Virus record (IMG/VR): IMGVR_UViG_3300044796_000401
Reading direction: 5' to 3' (one strand)
From: a virus
Taxonomy: Duplodnaviria; Caudoviricetes
DNA length: 64,000 nt
The notes under the pieces are model-generated. The model saw only the letters and a list, made by a program, of their open reading frames with translations, had not been told where the DNA came from and ran no database searches. Below, in pieces: positions 12,880-26,383 of this stretch; positions within the stretch are counted from its first letter, which is position 1, and each line of letters opens with the position of its first letter. A program made the translations under genes and the position numbers.

Positions 12880-13147
12880 AGCCATGAGCAAAATTCCCTC
12901 GACGCCATGCTTGCTCTGCAACCAGCCTGTGACGCTGGCGATGCGGCAAAAGTTTACGCCGTGCCCCAAAAGCAAGGATGGCAAAAGCGGACACGCTTTG
13001 GTTCGCTCCCCGGATTCGCTCGGGAAGATCATGCCGAAGAGGGGGCGCTAACATGCACGTTTTACTTTTCTTGGCGCTGCTTTGGATTGCATACAAGATC
13101 GGTCAGAGTAACAGCCAGCACAGATAAATCGCATCGAGGAGAGTGTC

Positions 13148-13669
13148 ATGAGAAAGAGAAACAGGGCAATGTTCGAGGAGCCGACGGTCGAAGTCGTGGA
13201 CACGCGCGTGGTTGCGAATGGGGTGATCGTGCCCAAGAATAGATGCGCCGAGCACGCTTATACGCCGGTGCTGAATGATGCGCCGTGGTTCACGGTGCTG
13301 CTGGTCCACCCGGACCCGGCAAAGCCGACCGACATAAAGGCGACCAGACTCTTCCATACTTCGGATTACAAGCAGGCTTGCAGGGAGGCCACCAAATTCG
13401 CGAGCCAGCATCCGTGCGACAAGTTTGTTCCCGTCTCCCGCATGGGCTGGCCGCCCAGCGCAGCGTGGAGTTCAGAGCACAAGCACATGGCCGTGTATGT
13501 GACCGTGGACGAGGAACGCAGCACGGAGCCATACGTCAAGGCCACGCAAGCCACGCTGCTGCGCAGGTGCCGCGGACTGCACCAGATCGTGTTCCGGCTA
13601 GGCTCAAACGGCCACATGGTTGGCGAACCCAGCGCCGTCTCGGACGAACACAAGTTCAGGCTTATTTGA
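13148..13669 (+). CDS. Hypothetical protein
   Basis: GAGGAG RBS; 173-aa ORF. Confidence 0.5.
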   Translation: MRKRNRAMFEEPTVEVVDTRVVANGVIVPKNRCAEHAYTPVLNDAPWFTVLLVHPDPAKPTDIKATRLFHTSDYKQACREATKFASQHPCDKFVPVSRMGWPPSAAWSSEHKHMAVYVTVDEERSTEPYVKATQATLLRRCRGLHQIVFRLGSNGHMVGEPSAVSDEHKFRLI

Positions 13670-15557: not shown

Positions 15558-16049
15558 TTAACGCGTGCACCGCGATTGTGGAAGATCGCGAACAATTAGA
15601 TGTTTCTTTTTAAGATACGCGATAGCCTTGTATAAAAGCTCCACGTTATCTTGAAACAAGCCAAGGGCTCGATTATGCGCGTCACATAACAAGCCGCGTA
15701 TCTCGTCCGTCTCATGGTCGTGATCTACGGACAGTCTACGATTCTTTTTGGGAGGACGACCGCAAAGGGCGCAACCTCCTCCTTGCTCTTCGGAAAGTCG
15801 TTGATATAGCGTCTCTGAAATTCCGTGTCTCAAGCGAAGATCGGTTTTTCTTTGTGCCTGTTTTACGGCTTCTGGATGTGTTTTACACCATTGTCTATAG
15901 CGATCATTATCGCACGACTTACAATAAGCACGTAAGTATCCGTTTTTTCTGACGCCGAATTCGGCTATAAGTTTTGGGAGTGTACAAATGGGGCACCGTT
16001 TCGTTTCTATCGGTCGTTTATGACATCGTTTTGTTGGTTGTGCAGTCAT
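15558..16049 (-). CDS. Endonuclease VII-type HNH endonuclease
   Basis: CALCG...LSVDHDHETDEIRGLLCDAHNRALG..DN...KAIAYL. Confidence 0.85.
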   Translation of the reverse strand: MTAQPTKRCHKRPIETKRCPICTLPKLIAEFGVRKNGYLRAYCKSCDNDRYRQWCKTHPEAVKQAQRKTDLRLRHGISETLYQRLSEEQGGGCALCGRPPKKNRRLSVDHDHETDEIRGLLCDAHNRALGLFQDNVELLYKAIAYLKKKHLIVRDLPQSRCTR

Positions 16050-17651: not shown

Positions 17652-20442
17652 TGGGGTATGACCGGAGCGGTTCCAGTTTTGCCCGAGGAGATGACGGATG
17701 ACCAAGCGCGTCGAAGAGAACCTTGAGGAATACGGCGAACGGCTGGGCAGGATGCCCGACACCGGACTTGTGAAGGAAATCCGCAGCTACAAGTTCGTCC
17801 CCCGCCCGCCGATAGTGGACATGGTGGTGCTGGAGTTCTGCATGAAGCATCTCGCGCTGCCCAAGGAACAGCGCCAAGCGGCTCCGCGCACCGTACAAAT
17901 TCTGGAGCCCAAGAAGATGAGCTACGAGGAGGAGTAGTGCGCGGCTGCAAGCCATCGCTGAAGCGGACCATCTGGCGCTGGCTGGACGAAATCCACCAGC
18001 GCAACATGGCGCCGCGGGAGCACACCGACTGGCGGAAGGCTGGCAAGCTGGTTCCTTACGTGAATGCTTTCGTCAAGGAATGCGGCGGCGAGATTCCAGA
18101 GCACCTGTTGCCGAAGAGAAAGGAAAAGACTGATGAAGGAAACGAGACAACTCAAACCGGGGAATAGGTTCAGCTTTCTTCCCCCAGCATGGCACGGTCC
18201 CAGCATCGTCAGGGAATCCCATGCCTCCGGGAACCTGTGGACGCTGAAGTTCGACAACCCGAAGATCGTCAATCCTCCGGGCGTTTGGTACGGGGAGCCG
18301 GGAACAAAAGTCCGGCTGTTGAAGAAAGGAAAGGCATGAAGAAAGAGACGAAAAAGGCCGAGCGTACGCGGCGGCTGCGGCACATGGCGGGGCTGTTCGA
18401 CGACCTGTCGTTCTTCTACAAGGCCACGGGCGACGACGACCGCTCCAAGGGATTGAAGAAAGCGGCACGCAAGCTGCGGAGGAAAAAGTGAATATCGAGG
18501 GCCTATTCGTCGGGCAGAGGGCCTGGAGCGTCACCAAGGGGAAGATGGGGAACACGACCATCGTCACGACCCGCGTGCATCCGGTGGACATCGTCGGGAT
18601 CGACCCCGAGAAGCGTTGGGTCCTCGCATCGTGGAACGGCAACCGGCCAGAGAAATGCTACAGGCTTCGCGTCTCTGGATGGCGCAAGAGCGAACCGATC
18701 TTGATCGAATCGATGACCGGGCGGAGCCGCTTGGCGACGCGGGAGGAACTCAAGGCCATCGCGGACGGGACTTTCACCGGAAGGCACAGCCGGGACACCG
18801 TCCGCTGGCGGGAGGAAGGGCTTTCGCAACTGGCGAAGATCGATCCCGTCAACGAAGTCCTGTGCCCTTACCAGCTTCCCATCGACATCGGGAAGTCGGT
18901 CAACGAAATCCAGAAGGAATGGAACCGTGGAAACTGCTGACCTGACAACGGCGACCGACATGGAACTGACCTACCATGGGTATGAACGTGCGCGATTACT
19001 GCGGATGCTCCATACCGGGCTGGAAACAGTGAAGCGCCAAGCCGAAGTCAAGGAAAGCATCATTTGCGATCTCGAACGGGACTTGGACCTGATCAACGCG
19101 GAGTTGAACAACCGGAATTACCACGACATCGGGCATGCCCGAGAACAGTTCGAATGCAAGGCCGTGGACGGCCACAAGGTCTTGCTGGCGGACGACGAAC
19201 TCGACCCTCGGGTGAGGGCGTTCCGGGACGAGGGGGTACTGTGAAGCCGAAACTTTTCGTGGGGCTGGTCGAGTTCTGGCTGGCGAACTTCGTCAACGAC
19301 GGGCCCATCACGTTCAGGATTCCATTGGATGGATTGGAGAAAAAAGATGTTTGACGACAAGATCACGAAGCACGAGAGCTTCGGCGCGATCACGGTGAAC
19401 CGCGTGAGCGGCCAGTCGTATTTGTTCGGCTCCGAGGCGCTGCACCACGGCTTCATCCGCGTGGAGATCAGCGATGCGGACATGCGCCGGAGCCTGAGCG
19501 ACGACCACGTCTACGCCGACCGCAGGCTGGTCACCGTCGACATGACGTACGAGCAGTGGGCCCGGTTCGTGTCGAGCTTCGGGCTCGGCATGGGCACGCC
19601 CTGCACCCTGCGGCAGGTCGGCACCAAGCGGTACGAGGAGCCGCCCGAGCCCGAGAGCTTCACCAGCAAGTTCCAAGACGACCTGAAAGAGACCGTGAAC
19701 GAAGCCATGGAGAAGCTGGAGGGGCTGATCACGAAGCTCACCGAATCGAACCTGCCAGGCAACAAGCCCCTCGGCAAGAAGGAACAAGCCGTGGTGCTCG
19801 GCGATATCAAGCAAGCCGTCATGCGGATCAAGAGCAACGTCCCCTTCATCGAGCGCCAGTTCGACGAAGCGATGGAGACCAAGGTCGCCGCCGCCATCAT
19901 CGAGGTCGAGGGCACCATCGCCCACGGGCTCCGCGAGGCGGGGCTCGCCTCCCTGCGGCAGAACATGCCGGAGTACGATAGGATGTTCGCGGTGGGCAAG
20001 CCGCAGGAGCAACTGCCGGAAATCGTCGATGCCGAGATCATCATCGAAAATGACGACCGCGGCATCGGAAAGCCGTAAGCATGGTCTACGTCACGAAGGA
20101 AGGCCACGAGGTCGAATACAAGCATCCCCAGCGGCCGTTGATGAAGTCCATCAGCGTCACGCTGCTGGACAAGGCGACGTTTAGCTCGGACCAGCTTCTC
20201 GACGTGATCTGGAAGCACGCCAGGTTCCTGTGCCGCCGTGTCGTGTTCAACCATTCCTACAGGCATGAGAACGGCTCCCTTTCCCACACTTACGACTTGT
20301 ACTTCGATTGGGGGCCGTTCGGCTCCCAGCGCCTTGGCGGCAAGGAGATCAACACGATCGTCGCCGCCATCGAGGAAGACCTGCCGAGCCACATCCCGGT
20401 CAGCCTGCGCGGACGGTCGCATCGGGCCGGACAGGAAGCTAA

Positions 20443-20976
20443 ATGAAGCACATGCTCCTTTCGATTTTGCTTGTTTTGCTTGCTATCCCGGCGAGGGCTG
20501 ACTGCGGCCGCAAGGAGTGGCACACCCGCGTCCGTTCCATCTTGGTCCGGCTTTTTCCGAACGATGAGATGGCCAGCAATGTCCGCCTCGTCTTCATTTG
20601 TGATCCCCGCCCGGACGCCACCTACTCGAACGGCAACATGGTCATCGACTCCGGATTGATGAAGTTCAAAAGGGCCGAGATCGCCGCCGTCCTCGCCCAC
20701 GAGATGGGACACGCGAAACTGGAACAGGACATAGCCTTCGGGCTGTTCGGCGAAAGCCTCGCCGCGCTGGAAAAGGACGAAATAGATGCCGACGACTTCA
20801 GCCTCGTCACCCTGCGCCGGGCGGGATACGGCCCTTGCGATGCCTATCATGCCATGGCGAAGGCGTTGCCGTACTTTCCCAGCATTCTCAAGAATCCTAC
20901 CGGCCCGCACAACCGGATAGTCGTCCATCGCTTCGGCAGGCTCCAAGAGGCATGCAAACAGGGGGGCGTGACATGA
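20443..20976 (+). CDS. Secreted M48-family metallopeptidase
   Basis: Signal peptide; AVLAHEMGH and EIDADDFS...RAGY. Confidence 0.8.
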   Translation: MKHMLLSILLVLLAIPARADCGRKEWHTRVRSILVRLFPNDEMASNVRLVFICDPRPDATYSNGNMVIDSGLMKFKRAEIAAVLAHEMGHAKLEQDIAFGLFGESLAALEKDEIDADDFSLVTLRRAGYGPCDAYHAMAKALPYFPSILKNPTGPHNRIVVHRFGRLQEACKQGGVT

Positions 20977-22380
20977 CATGGATTTTCGAATGCCCGGACT
21001 GCGATGCGAGGGTTACTCTCGACCCCCACGCCCTAGAGTCGCCGCAGACCCGGTGCCAGAGTTGCGGCCGCGCATTCAAGACATCCGGGTTGCGGGCGCA
21101 CGGGTTCATCTATTCGATAGGAACCGAGGAAGAAGAGGAATAAAACATGGCGCACGCGCACAAAGTCACGAAAGCCGACCGCCGCAATAAGGGCCGCCGC
21201 AAGGACCAGGGCGCGGCGACGATGGCCGCCCTCAAGCGGCTCGACGCCCGGAACGCCCTTGAAAAAGCCGTTATCGCCGAGGACAAGCCGCCGCTCGGGC
21301 CGAGGAGTAGCGGATGATTAGCATCAACGTCAACGGTAACGTCCGGGTGAAACTGACGCCGTCAGGCGAGGCGCTGTGGGCCGAGCACTGGAAGAGGACG
21401 AACCCCAAAGGCGTGCCGGACGCCATCCGCAGATCGCAAGTCGAAGCGTGCGGGTGGACGCGGTTCCAGTTGCACGAACTCATGCTCGTTTTCGGCAAGG
21501 CGATGTGGAACGGCAACATGGAGTTGCCGTTTGAAATGAACGAAACCAGGCTGACTCGCAACTGAGGAAACATGCCAAGGTCAATAACAGCAATCTGCGG
21601 CGTGCCGTTTCGCAAGATCGTGAAGCACGCGCGGAAAAACCTCCGGACCTCCACCGAAACCCTGTCATGCGGGCACACGATGCTGCGCCGGGAGGATGCC
21701 AACGGTTTGGGAACTATACGCTTTACACCACAAGGAGATAAACCATGAGAAAGAAAGAAGCTAGACCTAATGAATCGGACAACAGAATCTTCAAAGTCGA
21801 GGCACAAGGAGACACACTCTATATCCAAGCGCCTACGCAGGAAGATGCTCATTTACAACTAACTGAAAAGATTGGCCCTATTCCTGATCGGCTGCTCACA
21901 TGGGGCGAAGTCAAAAAATTACCAAAAGGCGAAGAGTTTTTGTAGGGTATCAAGCGTATAATTCCCAACGGTTTCTGTTGCGCATCCCAGCGGAGGTGCT
22001 ATACTTGCAAGAGGGAAGGCTACGAGAGCCTGAAGAGCCGCAAAATCCGCCTTGCGAACGAACGCTGGGACAAAGAAATGGAGCCGTTCCTTGAGGAAAA
22101 CCAGTCGAAAGCCAAGAAGTAAGTATCCGACCGTCCGCGCTGGCTGCCGCCACTGGTTCGGAATCGTGCCCACCGACAAGCGGATCGATAAATATGCGCA
22201 AGCGCATTGCATCCTCAAGGAGGATATTCCCGAGGACATCTTCGACACCATGGACCGGGACTTGTTCATCAATATCATCGTGGAGGATGCGCTTGGCAAG
22301 GGGTATAATCGGCCCATGAATTGCGACTCCGACGAGTACAAGAACAAGTTCTATCCGCTGTTCTACCAAGTCGCGCCGTA

Positions 22381-22648
22381 GAGCCCCTGCCTTCAGGCAT
22401 GGGGATATAAGGCGCGTTATACAGCTTAAAGATATTTATTGACAAACAGAAAGCGAAGGCGTACACTTTCATTGAAGGTTTGAGAATCCTAGCCGAGGGA
22501 CGCTCGGTATCAGCCTGTGGAGGCACAGTAAGTCTTGAGCGCGAGCCCAAGCATGTGCCTGTGAAGCAGGAAACATCGTTGGAGACGTGCGGCAATGCCG
22601 CATAGTAACTCCAAAGAATCCCCCGCCTTTAGGCGTGGGGAGTCTCAA
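22381..22648 (+). mobile_element. Internally deleted IS200/IS605-family element (non-autonomous)
   Basis: Left hairpin CCCCTGCCTTCAGGCATGGGG (22384-22404) and right hairpin CCCCCGCCTTTAGGCGTGGGG (22620-22640) ending in TCAA. 22474-22605 encodes a TnpB-like C-terminal tail (EGLRILAEGRSVSACG...VKQE). Confidence 0.75.
22439..22467 (+). promoter_or_regulatory. Near-consensus sigma70 promoter TTGACA-17-TACACT inside the IS remnant
   Basis: Directly read. Confidence 0.75.
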
Positions 22649-22668
22649 AGGAAGGCAATCAAGAAGGG
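22474..22668 (+). ncRNA. Putative stand-alone TnpB omega-RNA (scaffold plus flanking guide AGGAAGGCAATCAAGAAGGG)
   Basis: TnpB omega-RNAs overlap the tnpB 3' end and the right end. Here exactly that segment follows a promoter. Confidence 0.5.
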
Positions 22669-22920
22669 CATCAAGGTCACGGCTGCCGCCCGGAGGATCG
22701 CATGTACGACGAACTGATAGCCACAGCCCCGAGCGGGGAAATCGCCATGAGGCTGGTCAAGGCGCTCAGGGAGGTGTTCGGCATCAAGGTCACCGCGAGC
22801 GGCACGCTTGTCACCTCGGCGGGCACGAGCGTGAAAATTTTCGGGGATGTCACTCCCATCTTCCTTCCCATCGTGAAAGCCTACACCAAGGGATTCCTCG
22901 AAGGAGCCAGCAAATAAGCC

Positions 22921-23412
22921 ATGGCTGAAACGCAGAAATCCGTCCATGAATGGTGCAAGACGACCTTTTCCCGGTTTGCGGGATTGCAGGGGCGGGCGAC
23001 CGCCTTGTTGGAAGAAGCTGTTGAATTGGCGTTGACTGCTGGACTGAGCAGTGAAACCATTTACGCCACTGCGAGGGTGCCGATCCTCAAGGAAGCCGCC
23101 AGAGCCAAGAGTGGTTGGCCCACGATTCAATGCCGCAAATGCGCCGCCTTTTTCTGGGTTCCGGACGGATGCGCCTGCGGCGAGCACAAGCCGTTCAATT
23201 CGATGACTGGAAAAAACGGGGACGCGGAGGAGATCGCGGATGTCATGATCTGCGTCTACGCCTGCGCCGAGGAGGCGGGGTACGATGCCCGCAAGGAACT
23301 GGACGAAAAAATGGCATTGAACCGCAGCCGCCCGGCGGAGTATTATGCCGAGAAGACGGCACGCAAGGAAGAGTTGGGCTACGTCCTTCCGGAGAGCGGG
23401 GTGCCGCGATGA
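22921..23412 (+). CDS. MazG-like nucleotide pyrophosphohydrolase with Zn-finger insert
   Basis: LLEEAVEL...EEIADVMI; CRKC...CACGEH insert. Confidence 0.65.
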   Translation: MAETQKSVHEWCKTTFSRFAGLQGRATALLEEAVELALTAGLSSETIYATARVPILKEAARAKSGWPTIQCRKCAAFFWVPDGCACGEHKPFNSMTGKNGDAEEIADVMICVYACAEEAGYDARKELDEKMALNRSRPAEYYAEKTARKEELGYVLPESGVPR

Positions 23413-24296
23413 GCAAAACGGTTCCGCCGCTGCGGACGCGGCTGTGGGAATTGGCGCGGTACATGCGAATGGAATTGCACACGGCGAGTCTCATCACGGA
23501 CGAGGAATACGCCGAACTGGCCCAGGACCACGACGCCGTGCGCCGACTGGAGGAATGGGATGCCATCCGGGCGGCGGAAAAATCCCCGGAAGACGGGAAT
23601 AGCGCGGCAACCGCGATCCCGCAGCAGGTCATCGCCGACGAGATTCTGCGAAGGATCGCAATGCGCTACAAGCATTGCGATGCGAACATCTATCCTGCGT
23701 TTCCGGGATTGACGGCGGTCGAAGCGGAATTGACGGTGGTCGAAGCGGTTTTGCGCTGCGCAGCCAAGGAAGGATTCTGGCTGACAAACATGCCGAGGTG
23801 ACCGATGGCGAAAAACATGGACCTTGAAAAGCTGCGGGAATCCGCCCGCAAGCTTATCATGCTGATCGACACGAAGAACGACTGGGTGGGCCTGATGCCG
23901 GGGCAAATGGCATTCCACGACCTCCTGAACGGCATACGCTGGGAGATCGACGGCGAGGAGAGCGAAGTTCTTCGCACGACGGGGTGCTTGGAAAAGTACC
24001 TGAGGAGAGGATAAATGCGGCCGATCAAGAAGACCTTGCCTTGCGGGGTGGTGCTGCGGCAGATGCCCTCCCCCGAAGACGAGAATTTCGACAGGGATTA
24101 CGTCCAGTTCCACATCGAACCCACGGGGCCGGAGATCAGCAACAATTTCGTCCGCGCCTACAACGGGGACGAAAAACCCAATAAGGACTTCGCCCCCTAC
24201 AAAAGGCAGGCGGATATCATCGTCGCCCGCAGGAACCTGCGGGCGTTGCGGGCCTTGATCGACCGATTGATCAGGCAAAAAGTCTAAGGGGGCAAA

Positions 24297-24890
24297 GTGG
24301 GCATATTGGTTCCGATGGTGGTCGAGCAGACCAGCCGCGGCGAACGCGCCTACGACATCTATTCCCGCCTGCTGAAGGACCACATCATCTTCCTCGCGGC
24401 GGAAATCGACGACGACGTTGCCAACCTCGTGATCGCGCAGATGCTCTTCCTCGAAGCGGAAGACCCGAACCGCAGCATATCCCTCTACATCAACTCGCCG
24501 GGCGGCAGCGTCACGTCGGGGCTGGCGATCTACGACACCATGCAGTTCGTCAAGCCGAGCATCGAGACGATATGCATCGGGCAGGCGGCGAGCATGGCGG
24601 CGGTGCTGCTGGCGGGCGGCGCTCCGGGGAAGCGGCTCACCCTGCCGCACGTCCGGATCATGATCCACCAGCCGATGCTGTTCGGGCTGAGCGGACAGGC
24701 GACGGACATCGAAATCCACGCCAAGGACATCCTGCGCATAAAGAGGCGCTTGAACGAGATCATGTCGAAGCACACCGGGCAGCCGCTCGAAAAGCTGGAG
24801 AAGGACGCCGACCGGGACTTCATCATGGGCGCGGAGGAAGCGAAGGAATACGGGATCGTGGACACCATCGTCGGGAAGAAGGGCAGCTAG
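24297..24890 (+). CDS. clpP: ATP-dependent Clp protease proteolytic subunit
   Basis: [43 protein letters not shown]. Confidence 0.97.
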
Positions 24891-24917
24891 CCGATTCCTC
24901 CCCGGTCGCTGTATACT
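24888..24917 (+). promoter_or_regulatory. Promoter TAGCCG-18-TATACT
   Basis: Recurring motif; upstream of ORF 24928. Confidence 0.6.
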
Positions 24918-25179
24918 AGGAGTGCGTATGATTCTCAAGTGCCAATGCTGCGGGTTCGAGCGGGAGTTCGCCGACGCCGAGGAGGCGTTCGAGGCGGGCT
25001 GGGACGCCCCGCCGCATTTTTTCTATGTTTGCTGCGATTGCTGCCCCGCTTCTTATCTGATACTGGGCACGGATCACAGCGAGGTTCACGAACGGTGGAA
25101 GAGGGATGGGAGACCAACGCCATAAATACCACTAACAAATGAATTAGGATACTTTCAACTCCCTAAATGGGGGTTGAAA

Positions 25180-25791
25180 ATGACTTTAGAACAGAGAAGG
25201 ATTAACGCGGAAAAAGCTCTAAAGCTGTACCATGATAGGCGCTTGTCGGGAATTTGTGTGGCGTGCGGGAAGCGACCACCAATCCAAGGGGTGCTAAGAT
25301 GTGCTAGCTGCCGTAAGATACGAAAAGCCATCTCGCAAAAACAAAAGGAAAACAGACCGGAGGGGAGTTGTAGGCAATGTTTAACTCGCCCGGCAGTACC
25401 CGGATTGACTAGTTGCCAAAAATGCCGTGAACGTGGCTGTAAGAAAATGAACAATCTAACCCGTGAAACTAGACTCAAAGTTCTTGTTTTATATGGGGGA
25501 AAATGCCAGTGTCCCGGCTGTACGGTTTCAAACTTCAAATACCTGCAATTGGATCACAAAAACAACGATGGCGGTATAGAACGAAAAGCGTTGCCGCCAT
25601 CGATTCGGGGAACCAAGTTTTTTAAGCTAGTGTTGAGCCAAGAAAAGCGAAATGATTTGCAATTACTGTGTGCAAACTGCCATAATACTAAGAGGTATGG
25701 TGGTTGCACCGAGGAAGATCATGCCGGGACAAGAACGAATCCGCTACCCGAGAACCCCGCATCTGATGTGGAGCCCCGGAGCCACGTCTGA
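25180..25791 (+). CDS. HNH endonuclease with N-terminal Cys repeats
   Basis: CQCPGC...LQLDHKNNDG...LLCANCHNTK. Confidence 0.75.
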   Translation: MTLEQRRINAEKALKLYHDRRLSGICVACGKRPPIQGVLRCASCRKIRKAISQKQKENRPEGSCRQCLTRPAVPGLTSCQKCRERGCKKMNNLTRETRLKVLVLYGGKCQCPGCTVSNFKYLQLDHKNNDGGIERKALPPSIRGTKFFKLVLSQEKRNDLQLLCANCHNTKRYGGCTEEDHAGTRTNPLPENPASDVEPRSHV

Positions 25792-26383
25792 TGACCGCGT
25801 GCTGAAAACGACCGCTTCGTGGGAGGGAACGGAGGTCGTCATCACGGAAAAAATGGATGGCAGTCAGTGCACGTTATACTGTGACGGCCTGCATGGACGG
25901 TCGTTGGAGTTGGATTCGCATTGGCAATGGGACAAGCTCAAGGCGATGCATGCCGCTATGTCCCACGAAATACCCGTGGGCTGGCGCATATGCTTGGAGA
26001 ATATGACAGCCGTCCATTCCATTGAATATGACAACCTGCCTTCGCTATTTTTAGTTTTTTCCACTTGGGACCGAGACAATATTTGCCTTGGCTGGGTAGA
26101 AACAACCGAATGGTGCGCGTTACTGGACTTAACGCCTGTTCCGGTGCTTTACCAAGGACTGTATACCGATGATGCTTGCAAAGCGCTCTGTGATTCGCTG
26201 GACACAAATCACCAAGAGGGGTTGGTTGTACGCCCTGCAAACCGTTTTCACTTTGACCGATTCAGCGTTCTGACTGGAAAGTGGGTCAGAAAAAACCATG
26301 TGCGGACTTCTGACCATTGGAAAGAACAGCCACCACGGTACAACCGGACCCGGCATATCGAATTCAACGAGGTGCAAGAATGA
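25697..26383 (+). CDS. RNA ligase (Rnl2-like nucleotidyltransferase)
   Basis: YPRTPHL.WSPGATSDD, TEKMDG, EGLVVR, KWVR..HV.T..HW. Confidence 0.8.
   Translation: MVVAPRKIMPGQERIRYPRTPHLMWSPGATSDDRVLKTTASWEGTEVVITEKMDGSQCTLYCDGLHGRSLELDSHWQWDKLKAMHAAMSHEIPVGWRICLENMTAVHSIEYDNLPSLFLVFSTWDRDNICLGWVETTEWCALLDLTPVPVLYQGLYTDDACKALCDSLDTNHQEGLVVRPANRFHFDRFSVLTGKWVRKNHVRTSDHWKEQPPRYNRTRHIEFNEVQE

What the first reader, a model, noticed from the sequence alone, without database searches (positions are those of the whole stretch)
22381..22668. IS200/IS605 remnant reduced to a promoter-driven omega-RNA cassette
Seen: both end hairpins are intact 270 bp apart. All of tnpA and tnpB is gone except the last 43 codons, which start right after a near-perfect TTGACA-17-TACACT promoter. 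Knowledge: TnpB omega-RNA overlaps the tnpB 3' end and right end, with the flank serving as guide. Inference: a stand-alone guide RNA of about 195 nt with guide AGGAAGGCAATCAAGAAGGG, for a TnpB or TldR acting in trans. This would be a third RNA-guided module in the window.
Basis: partly seen in the sequence, partly recalled or inferred. Interest (0 to 1): 0.75.

Follow-up and report, generated by a model that had tools for sequence, protein, structure and literature searches.

The report
Gene-less IS605 mini-transposon keeping its guide RNA
A 282-base, protein-free derivative of an IS605-type jumping gene recently landed in a small gene of this giant peat phage; it keeps the transposon's own promoter joined to a complete TnpB guide-RNA gene, a kind of element already described in bacteria, and no partner nuclease was found in the phage DNA I could check.

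Summary
An empty-site relative (L119) shows the element is exactly window 22367-22648. That is 282 nt, with no target duplication, inserted 3' of CTAC and ending in TCAA. It removes the last 22 codons of a 114-codon phage gene.

A full-length parent (tnpA + ORF191 + tnpB, L126-L128) is 98% identical to both halves. The mini-element is therefore this IS with about 2,070 nt deleted.

TTGACA-17-TACACT is the parent's own tnpA promoter. The deletion places it about 6 nt before the first helix of the omega-RNA.

A covariance model built without the window or its parent scores the retained 175 nt at 211.6 bits (E 4e-52). All 50 pairs are standard, and covariation is strong.

The guide (22649 onward) plus CTAC matches the uninterrupted allele of the sister phage.

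Not shown: a separate transcript, or a TnpB in the phage. Cognate TnpBs occur in other mobile elements, Acidobacteria genomes assembled from metagenomes (MAGs) and a 300-kb phage.

Omega-RNA-bearing PATEs (gene-less IS200/IS605 derivatives) that need TnpB in trans are already described (Meers 2023). The insertion is recent: flanks are 97-99.5% identical to the empty allele. This is a new member of a known kind, not an evolved phage module. An earlier first-stage note in this scan (e1-5377756) flagged this same stretch of the same genome.

The parts
22363..22366 (+). CTAC, the target/TAM-like tetranucleotide immediately 5' of the left end (phage DNA, not part of the element)
   Evidence: It is kept in the empty site of L119. 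CTAC precedes the left end at 9 of 11 distinct insertion sites of this IS family; the others are TTAC and CTAT.
22367..22648 (+). The whole mini-element: 282 nt, no target-site duplication
   Evidence: Alignment with the uninterrupted allele L119 reads ...GTTCTAC|AGGAAGG.... The element is 98% identical to the ends of the full-length IS in L126-L128.
22384..22404 (+). Left-end subterminal hairpin, inside a longer imperfect palindrome at 22372-22416
   Evidence: It is identical in the parent copies L126-L128.
22439..22467 (+). Sigma-70-type promoter TTGACA-17-TACACT, inherited from the parent's tnpA promoter; predicted start near 22474
   Evidence: Promoter scan, 10 of 12 matches. It sits at the same place in front of tnpA in the parent and in relatives L162, L366, L380, L336 and L346. 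Activity is inferred, not shown.
22469..22473 (+). Deletion junction; about 2,070 nt of the parent (L126:240-2307) are missing here
   Evidence: The BLAST segments 22363-22468 and 22474-22648 map to L126:134-239 and L126:2308-2482.
22474..22605 (+). tnpB 3' remnant: 43 codons plus the TAG at 22603-22605
   Evidence: 96% identical to the C-terminus of TnpB P0003, E 5e-19.
22474..22648 (+). Complete omega-RNA scaffold. Helix 1 pairs 22480-22485 with 22643-22648. A GCGA-tetraloop stem lies at 22534-22551 and a hairpin at 22587-22603. The right-end hairpin is the last stem.
   Evidence: Model R1, built without the window or its parent, scores it 211.6 bits, E 3.8e-52, over the full length with no non-standard pair. 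Covariation: 10 of 50 pairs among close relatives and 47 of 50 in the wide set, with 0 of 500 shuffles reaching the observed values. Fold z-score -3.9.
22620..22640 (+). Right-end subterminal hairpin
22645..22648 (+). TCAA, the last four bases of the right end
   Evidence: The empty-site alignment fixes the border. The same end occurs in the parent and in L129.
22649..22668 (+). Would-be guide AGGAAGGCAATCAAGAAGGG; this is phage flank, codons of the interrupted gene
   Evidence: It lies directly 3' of the right end. In L119 the same 20 nt follow CTAC without interruption. It is the only match in the window.
22091..22381 (+). Truncated phage gene (P0001, 96 aa). Its last four codons (QVAP) and the TAG come from the left end.
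   Evidence: P0001 compared with P0002. No known family.
22649..22717 (+). Orphaned 3' end of that gene (RKAIKKGIKVTAAARRIACTTN, then stop). In the intact allele it overlaps the start of the next gene at 22702.
   Evidence: P0002 ends ...FYRKAIKKGIKVTAAAGRIACTTN. Gene layout of L119.

Best explanation
This is a non-autonomous, protein-free derivative (a PATE/MITE) of an active IS605-family element that carries tnpA, a 191-aa ORF and tnpB.

Shown:
- An internal deletion of about 2.07 kb joined the element's own tnpA promoter to the last 175 nt. Those 175 nt are the complete omega-RNA scaffold of its ISDra2-type TnpB.
- The element inserted recently, by the IS200/IS605 mode. It lies 3' of CTAC, has no duplication, and sits in the 3' end of a small phage gene.

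Inferred:
- An RNA of about 190-195 nt probably starts near 22474. Its 3' part, the guide, reads the phage flank.
- The element can act only when a cognate TnpB is supplied in trans, by full-length copies in the host chromosome or in a co-resident mobile element.
- TnpB plus this RNA would then cut any copy of the locus that lacks the element: CTAC followed by AGGAAGGCAATC.... That covers the donor joint left after TnpA excision and the allele of sister phages such as L119.
- Recombination would restore or spread the insertion, which is the published selfish retention/homing role of TnpB.

It is transposon baggage rather than a module that the phage evolved. Without TnpB it is inert apart from truncating the gene and supplying an outward promoter.

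The confidence given covers the identity and the intact, expressible guide RNA gene. I put actual use by a TnpB in natural infections at about 0.35-0.45.
For: Borders, and an insertion without duplication: the empty site in L119.

Parentage:
- 98% identity to both ends of the IS in L126, L127 and L128. These copies sit at three different sites with three different flanks, so the parent is active.
- The parent TnpB has all three Pfam domains and aligns with the solved ISDra2 TnpB at E 4.5e-72. The D192/E278/D359 motif contexts are intact.

Promoter: it is ancestral and conserved in front of tnpA.

Scaffold:
- The consensus fold has 50 pairs and 98.5% of cells are paired. Ten pairs carry compensatory changes. 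No shuffle reached this, and slid controls reach at most 3.
- In a 63-sequence set the model hits lie at the 3' end of tnpB in all 57 distant loci. Of 50 pairs, 47 covary, including all six pairs of closing helix 1.
- The window scores 211.6 bits over the full length.
- The three substitutions relative to the parent all fall in unpaired columns.
- Nucleotide-level invariance begins at about 22477-22480. Before it, 1 of 20 third codon positions is invariant; after it, 8 of 12. The deletion therefore keeps the whole RNA with about 6 nt to spare.

Target: CTAC plus the 20-nt guide is contiguous in L119.

A source of TnpB in trans is plausible:
- Relatives of 77-87% identity occur in many copies in Acidobacteria gp2 MAGs and in a complete 300-kb phage.
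- Inference: the insertion itself required a TnpA of this family in an infected cell.

A second independent mini-element of the same family also keeps the promoter and scaffold (L315, 184.5 bits).
Against: - No transcript with its own 5' end is shown. The one metatranscriptome holds an assembled contig over 22085-22610 that is continuous with the upstream gene and at the same depth as its neighbours. That fits read-through or contaminating DNA equally well.
- No TnpB or TnpA is in the 64-kb window.
- None of the roughly 45 TnpBs that are at least 63% identical to the parent sits on a contig longer than 40 kb, whereas this phage assembles into contigs of 208-270 kb.
- The insertion is very young. 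All occupied copies are identical over 5 kb, and the empty allele is 99.5% and 97% identical in the flanks. There has been no time for selection to show that the RNA matters.
- This exact mini-element was found at no second site.
- The host of the phage is unknown.
Confidence: 0.7

Rival explanations
1. It is a passive MITE. The element is dead cargo that happens to retain the promoter and scaffold. It meets no cognate TnpB or TnpA in the cells this phage infects, so its only effects are truncating the gene and possibly some transcription.
For: No TnpB or TnpA in the window, or on the long contigs of this phage. No sign of a distinct small RNA. The insertion is too recent for selection to be visible. 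This mini-element was seen at only one site.
Against: The insertion needed a TnpA of this family inside an infected cell, so such cells exist (inference). The scaffold has no damaging change. The parent is active at three or more sites in similar samples. Two independent mini-elements of this family both keep the promoter and full scaffold, far more than the hairpin ends.
Confidence: 0.4
2. It works as a mobile outward promoter. What matters to the phage is that the element's strong promoter reads out through the right end into the downstream genes (22702 onward), replacing the translational coupling that the insertion destroyed.
For: The promoter is near consensus and points at the downstream genes, and no terminator-like site follows on the + strand. 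The intact allele has overlapping genes that the insertion separates by 320 nt.
Against: The upstream genes are on the same strand, so read-through already supplies transcripts; the RNA-library contig is continuous from 22085 into the element. Nothing shows a benefit. The promoter is simply inherited.
Confidence: 0.1
3. It is a domesticated regulatory guide of the TldR type. The RNA would steer a nuclease-dead TnpB relative to repress a target.
For: Only the general precedent for TldR systems (bioRxiv 10.1101/2023.11.30.569447, listed).
Against: No TnpB-like gene lies nearby. The closest TnpBs keep the RuvC motifs. The guide is just the insertion flank and has no other match in the window. The ends are intact and the element is 98% identical to an active IS.
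Confidence: 0.02

Closest known systems
PATEs (palindrome-associated transposable elements) of IS200/IS605 that carry omega-RNAs, as noted for Geobacillus stearothermophilus by Meers et al. 2023 (bioRxiv 10.1101/2023.03.14.532601; first defined in Haloquadratum, PMC3119063)
   Same: Protein-free, bounded by left-end and right-end hairpins, and dependent on TnpA in trans for mobility. It carries an omega-RNA that needs TnpB in trans.
   Different: It sits in a giant phage genome, inside a phage gene. Its exact parent, deletion junction and empty site are all recovered. The deletion puts the tnpA promoter about 6 nt in front of the scaffold.
ISDra2 TnpB and its omega/reRNA (PDB 8bf8, 8ex9, 8h1j)
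   Same: The parent TnpB aligns over residues 12-387 at E 4.5e-72 with the catalytic motifs kept. The RNA overlaps the tnpB 3' end, ends at the right end, and takes its guide from the flank.
   Different: No tnpB lies in cis. The target motif is CTAC rather than TTGAT (the ISDra2 motif is from my own knowledge). The match of the fold to the solved RNA was not tested.
IS608 of Helicobacter pylori (the model for peel-and-paste transposition)
   Same: Insertion 3' of a YTAC tetranucleotide, a right end ending in TCAA, subterminal hairpins and no duplication. The IS608 details are from my own knowledge and from the description.
   Different: A different host range and sequence family, and this copy has lost both genes.
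Homing endonuclease genes of T4-like phages (intronless homing and marker exclusion; review PMC13565253)
   Same: If TnpB is supplied, the element would cut the allele of a co-infecting sister phage that lacks it and be copied in.
   Different: The nuclease would be borrowed and RNA-guided. Only the guide is carried by the phage. None of this was demonstrated here.

Membership tests
IS200/IS605 non-autonomous element (PATE/MITE) | Subterminal imperfect palindromes at both ends, and no terminal inverted repeats | tested here: met
   Hairpins at 22384-22404 and 22620-22640 in direct orientation.
IS200/IS605 non-autonomous element (PATE/MITE) | Insertion without target-site duplication, 3' of a short conserved motif | tested here: met
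   The empty site in L119 reads ...CTAC|AGGAAGG.... CTAC lies at 9 of 11 family insertion sites.
IS200/IS605 non-autonomous element (PATE/MITE) | Derived from a full-length element, with no transposase or nuclease gene left | tested here: met
   98% identity to both ends of L126-L128. Only 43 tnpB codons remain.
IS200/IS605 non-autonomous element (PATE/MITE) | Can be mobilised by a Y1 TnpA in trans | not testable with these tools
   Both ends are intact and nearly identical to those of the active parent. An excision assay is needed.
TnpB omega-RNA (reRNA) | Encoded at the tnpB 3' end through the right end, on the tnpB strand | tested here: met
   Homologous to that position in the parent. In all 57 distant loci the model hits lie at the 3' end of tnpB on its strand.
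TnpB omega-RNA (reRNA) | Conserved secondary structure supported by covariation, complete in this copy | tested here: met
   The window scores 211.6 bits over the full model length with all pairs standard.
TnpB omega-RNA (reRNA) | Guide equals the flank 3' of the right end, matching the TAM-adjacent sequence of the empty site | tested here: met
   L119 has CTAC directly followed by the 20 nt of 22649-22668.
TnpB omega-RNA (reRNA) | Present as a stable RNA in cells | tested here: inconclusive
   An RNA-library contig covers 22085-22610, but it is joined to the upstream gene and assembled contigs show no ends.
TnpB omega-RNA (reRNA) | Bound and used by a TnpB nuclease | not testable with these tools
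   No TnpB in the window. Candidates exist elsewhere: P0003, Acidobacteria MAGs and phage G001.
Rfam RNA families (any curated omega/IS605-related model) | Match at or near the gathering score | tested here: not met
   No match at gathering thresholds in the window. Only chance-level hits (E above 1) in 22200-22850.
TldR-type guide RNA | Partnered with a nuclease-dead TnpB homologue, with a guide aimed at a regulatory target rather than the insertion flank | tested here: not met
   No TnpB-like gene in the window. The parent keeps its RuvC motifs. The guide is the flank.

The most novel reading that the evidence does not exclude
The phage carries only the guide, and borrows TnpB from IS copies in its host's chromosome. 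In mixed infections this would destroy or convert sister phages that lack the insertion. That would be an RNA-guided 'guide-only' homing or exclusion element in giant phages. The promoter-to-scaffold fusion would then be favoured because it makes guide RNA without tnpB mRNA processing.
Probability: 0.15. Interest if true: 0.6.

Novelty: new member of a known kind. Interest (0 to 1): 0.35.

Why it matters
This is an unusually complete natural case. The same data set holds the parent IS, the deletion junction, the empty site and the guide's target. The data also show by covariation where the omega-RNA of this ISDra2-like clade begins, and that a natural deletion trimmed the element to 'promoter plus guide RNA'.

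If TnpB is supplied by the host, the phage-borne guide would bias inheritance of this locus among competing giant phages. Phage and plasmid assays could test that idea.

Otherwise it is ordinary. Omega-RNA-bearing PATEs and TnpB elements in phages are already known, and the insertion is too recent to be called a phage function.

Tried and rejected
**Rfam.** Nothing at gathering thresholds. In 22200-22850 only chance-level hits such as Hrs1 and TLS-PK3, all with E above 1.

**Reaching the rest of the genome.**
- No whole genome is held for the window.
- The ENA locus L120 could not be used as a genome handle. The rest of the phage was therefore not searched directly for tnpB.

**Looking for relatives of the region.**
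- The phage collection has no relative of 20000-26000. For the element it has only 35-nt right-end hairpin matches, in Nodularia phages.
- The flanking ORFs have no relatives in IMG/VR.

**Leads that came to nothing.**
- A weak tblastn hit of TnpB to 13097-13288 (E 0.002, 64 aa) was rejected. It lies in an unrelated 173-aa ORF, and the neighbouring ORFs have no Pfam match.
- tblastn of the 45-aa tail against phages and plasmids gave only E of 1-10, although the hits fell on insQ/TnpB tails.
- The exact junction of this mini-element was found in neither JGI metagenome contigs nor IMG/VR.
- CTAC plus the guide was not found in IMG/VR.

**RNA run X19.** No contig covers 22611-22825. DNA runs show similar holes, so this says nothing. 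No joint that skips the element appeared in the four runs laid.

**Context of the parent copy L126.**
- It is a small mobile element with a Prim-Pol gene, seen only on contigs of 3-4 kb.
- The lookup in earlier scan notes found no stretch like its Prim-Pol protein.
- It could not be tied to this phage.

**Other mini-elements, from a related IS family (L102/L060, L115).** They match the model only weakly (23.6 and 34.5 bits) and helix 1 aligns poorly. I do not count them as evidence that scaffolds are kept whole.

**TldR reading.** Rejected; see the rival explanations.

Full report
**1. What is in the sequence**

The two hairpins are real. CCCCTGCCTTCAGGCATGGGG lies at 22384-22404 and CCCCCGCCTTTAGGCGTGGGG at 22620-22640. 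They are in direct orientation and 236 nt apart. A degenerate pattern for them gives 5 matches in the window (both strands of both sites, plus one 3-mismatch hit) against 0.31 expected. None of 100 shuffles reached that number.

Between them lies TTGACA-17-TACACT at 22439-22467, with 10 of 12 consensus matches. After it comes an open frame ending in TAG at 22603-22605.

Rfam has no family for the region.

**2. Exact borders, from an empty site**

The upstream ORF (P0001, 96 aa) has a 93%-identical homologue, P0002. It does not stop at ...FYQVAP. It runs on as ...FYRKAIKKGIKVTAAAGRIACTTN.

The contig of P0002 (L119) aligns with the window on both sides and lacks 22367-22648. It reads ...CCGCTGTTCTAC|AGGAAGGCAATC....

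- The element is therefore 282 nt long, has no target duplication, follows CTAC and ends in TCAA. Neither border can be shifted.
- It removes the last 22 codons of the phage gene. Its left end supplies four codons and a TAG.
- In the intact allele the gene overlaps the start of the next gene at 22702.
- L119 is 99.5% identical to the window upstream and 97% downstream. Six occupied contigs from other samples are 100% identical to the window over up to 5 kb.
- The insertion is therefore recent.

**3. The parent element**

The 45-aa translation of the remnant finds the C-terminus of a 411-aa TnpB (P0003) at 96% identity, E 5e-19. About 45 further TnpBs follow.

P0003 lies on three short metagenome contigs (L126-L128). 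Each carries tnpA (Y1_Tnp, 132 aa), an unassigned 191-aa ORF and tnpB.

- Window 22363-22468 is 98% identical to L126:134-239. Window 22474-22648 is 98% identical to L126:2308-2482.
- The mini-element is therefore this IS with about 2,070 nt deleted, with the junction at 22469-22473.
- The three parent copies have identical ends but different flanks. They are independent insertions of an active element.
- CTAC precedes the left end at 9 of 11 distinct insertion sites of the family.
- P0003 aligns with the solved ISDra2 TnpB (8bf8, 8ex9, 8h1j) at E 4.5e-72 over residues 12-387. It keeps the SVD(192)INT, VVE(278)TL and RD(359)ENA contexts, which are invariant in 17 homologues.
- It therefore looks like an active nuclease, not a TldR.

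**4. The promoter**

TTGACA-17-TACACT is not a new feature. It sits at the same place in the parent, 6-7 nt before the tnpA ATG. Relatives keep it as TTGACA-17-TACACC, TTGGCA-17-TATCAT and similar forms.

The deletion removed everything from just before the tnpA start codon to codon 368 or so of tnpB. A transcript from this promoter would therefore start at about 22474. Promoter activity was not measured.

**5. The retained 175 nt are a whole omega-RNA scaffold**

Close relatives:
- Nineteen right-end regions, 83-98% identical, align without trouble.
- RNAalifold gives 50 pairs in nine helices. 98.5% of cells are paired.
- Ten pairs carry compensatory changes. No shuffle reached these values, and structures slid by 1-3 columns give at most 3 such pairs and about 40% pairing.
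- The three differences between the window and its parent lie in unpaired columns.

Model test:
- A covariance model built from 15 relatives, leaving out the window and its parent, scores the window at 211.6 bits, E 3.8e-52.
- The match covers positions 1-175 with no non-standard pair. It is the only full hit in the 64 kb.
- The same model finds full-length matches at the 3' end of tnpB, on its strand, in 57 loci whose TnpBs are only about 40% identical. These come from Ktedonobacterales, Burkholderia, Endozoicomonas, cyanobacteria and viral contigs.
- On that alignment 47 of 50 pairs covary. This includes all six pairs of helix 1, which joins 22480-22485 to the last bases of the right end, 22643-22648. 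That alignment is fitted to the model, so it leans towards the structure. The controls were run on the same alignment.

Where the RNA starts:
- Extending the alignment 120 nt upstream adds no covarying helix.
- In the 60 nt before the scaffold, 1 of 20 third codon positions is invariant. In the first 36 nt of the scaffold, 8 of 12 are.
- RNA-level constraint therefore starts at about 22477-22480, only 4-10 nt after the junction.
- The single-sequence fold of 22474-22668 has a z-score of -3.9 and leaves the 20-nt flank unpaired.

**6. Guide and target**

The flank AGGAAGGCAATCAAGAAGGG occurs once in the window. In L119 it follows CTAC directly. A TnpB loaded with this RNA would therefore recognise the uninterrupted allele. 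That is what the published retention/homing model predicts.

**7. Is it expressed, and is there a partner?**

Expression:
- One metatranscriptome (X19) holds a 526-nt assembled contig over 22085-22610. It has no differences from the window, it is continuous with the upstream gene, and its depth matches that of its neighbours.
- Assembled contigs show neither ends nor strand, and DNA carry-over is possible.
- Expression as a separate RNA is therefore undecided.

Partner:
- No tnpB or tnpA is in the window.
- Among 3,890 TnpB homologues, the roughly 45 that are at least 63% identical to P0003 sit on contigs of at most 40 kb. This phage assembles into contigs of 208-270 kb. A cognate TnpB in the phage is thus unlikely but not excluded, because assemblies break at repeats.
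- Earlier first-stage notes on this genome mention other IS605/IsrB-type elements, but no intact TnpB. I did not check those notes.
- Close relatives (77-87% identical) occur in many copies in Acidobacteria gp2 MAGs, once in a Binatia MAG, and once in a complete 299,875-bp phage that has one tnpB and one scaffold.
- Inference: the insertion itself needed a TnpA of this family in an infected cell. At least some hosts or co-resident elements therefore carry the family.

**8. Comparison with what is known**

Meers et al. describe minimal IS200/IS605 elements without genes (PATEs). [quoted passage not shown]

The present element fits that description feature by feature. A second, independent mini-element of the same family in soil metagenomes (L315 = L378 = L301) also keeps the left end, the promoter and the full scaffold, and scores 184.5 bits. 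About 120 nt of tnpB coding sequence lie between its junction and the scaffold start.

Three things are particular here:
- the setting, a gene of a giant phage that also has CRISPR and VIPR systems according to earlier notes;
- the recovery of parent, junction and empty site together;
- the tight fusion of promoter to scaffold.

**9. Verdict**

- The reading as a 'stand-alone omega-RNA cassette' is structurally right and fits a known class.
- Its function in this phage is unproven.
- The promoter is inherited, the insertion is young, and a passive MITE remains a serious alternative.
- I rate it a new member of a known kind, of moderate interest.

Noticed in passing
L126:636-1211 (parent IS; also in L127 and L128): A 191-aa ORF lies between tnpA and tnpB of the parent IS605 element. 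It overlaps both neighbours by a few bases and has no Pfam or PHROG match. It may be an uncharacterised IS605 accessory gene.
   Followed up: partly
L126:211-247 and the equivalent window 22439-22474: In the parent and its relatives the tnpA start codon lies only 6-7 nt after the -10 box. The tnpA mRNA is therefore probably leaderless.
   Followed up: partly
L315 (= L378, L301), minus strand, about 340 nt ending at the right end: A second, independent mini-element of the same IS family occurs in soil metagenomes. It has the left end, the promoter and the first four tnpA codons fused to the last ~290 nt, and it is also inserted after CTAC.
   Followed up: partly
L102:2755-3011, L060:2241-2502 (-), L115:7655-7807: Mini-elements of a related IS605 family occur in IMG/VR phage contigs. 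The L102/L060 type has an extended -10 promoter-like site (TTTGCA-18-TGATACTAT) upstream of its scaffold-like part and occurs at different sites. L115 has no promoter, and the 5' strand of helix 1 seems to be lost.
   Followed up: partly
G001 = IMGVR_UViG_3300036766_000194, 31.6-32.0 kb (L214, L395, L396): A complete 299,875-bp phage genome with direct terminal repeats carries one full tnpB (78% identical to the parent) and one scaffold (202 bits). It shows weak DNA similarity (67-69%) to two other parts of the window, so it may be a distant relative of this phage.
   Followed up: partly
L127:2491-2925 (-): One copy of the parent IS sits next to, or inside, a fragment of another transposase gene (phrog_506, E 3.5e-31). 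This looks like nested insertion.
   Followed up: no
window 22651-22674: The guide region contains a 12-nt tandem repeat, GAAGGCAATCAA / GAAGGGCATCAA, which codes for KAIK-KGIK in the interrupted gene. A near-copy of part of the guide therefore lies 12 nt downstream, without a CTAC.
   Followed up: no
window 22595-22717: An ATG inside the scaffold hairpin opens a 40-codon frame. It reads out through the right end into the orphaned C-terminal codons of the interrupted gene and ends at that gene's original stop, overlapping the start of the next gene. Whether it is translated is unknown.
   Followed up: no
window 15558-16049 (-) = L120:3468-3959: A 163-aa Endonuclease_7 (HNH-type) gene is called on contig L120, but no gene is called there on other contigs of the same phage. 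I did not check whether the DNA differs or only the gene calling.
   Followed up: no
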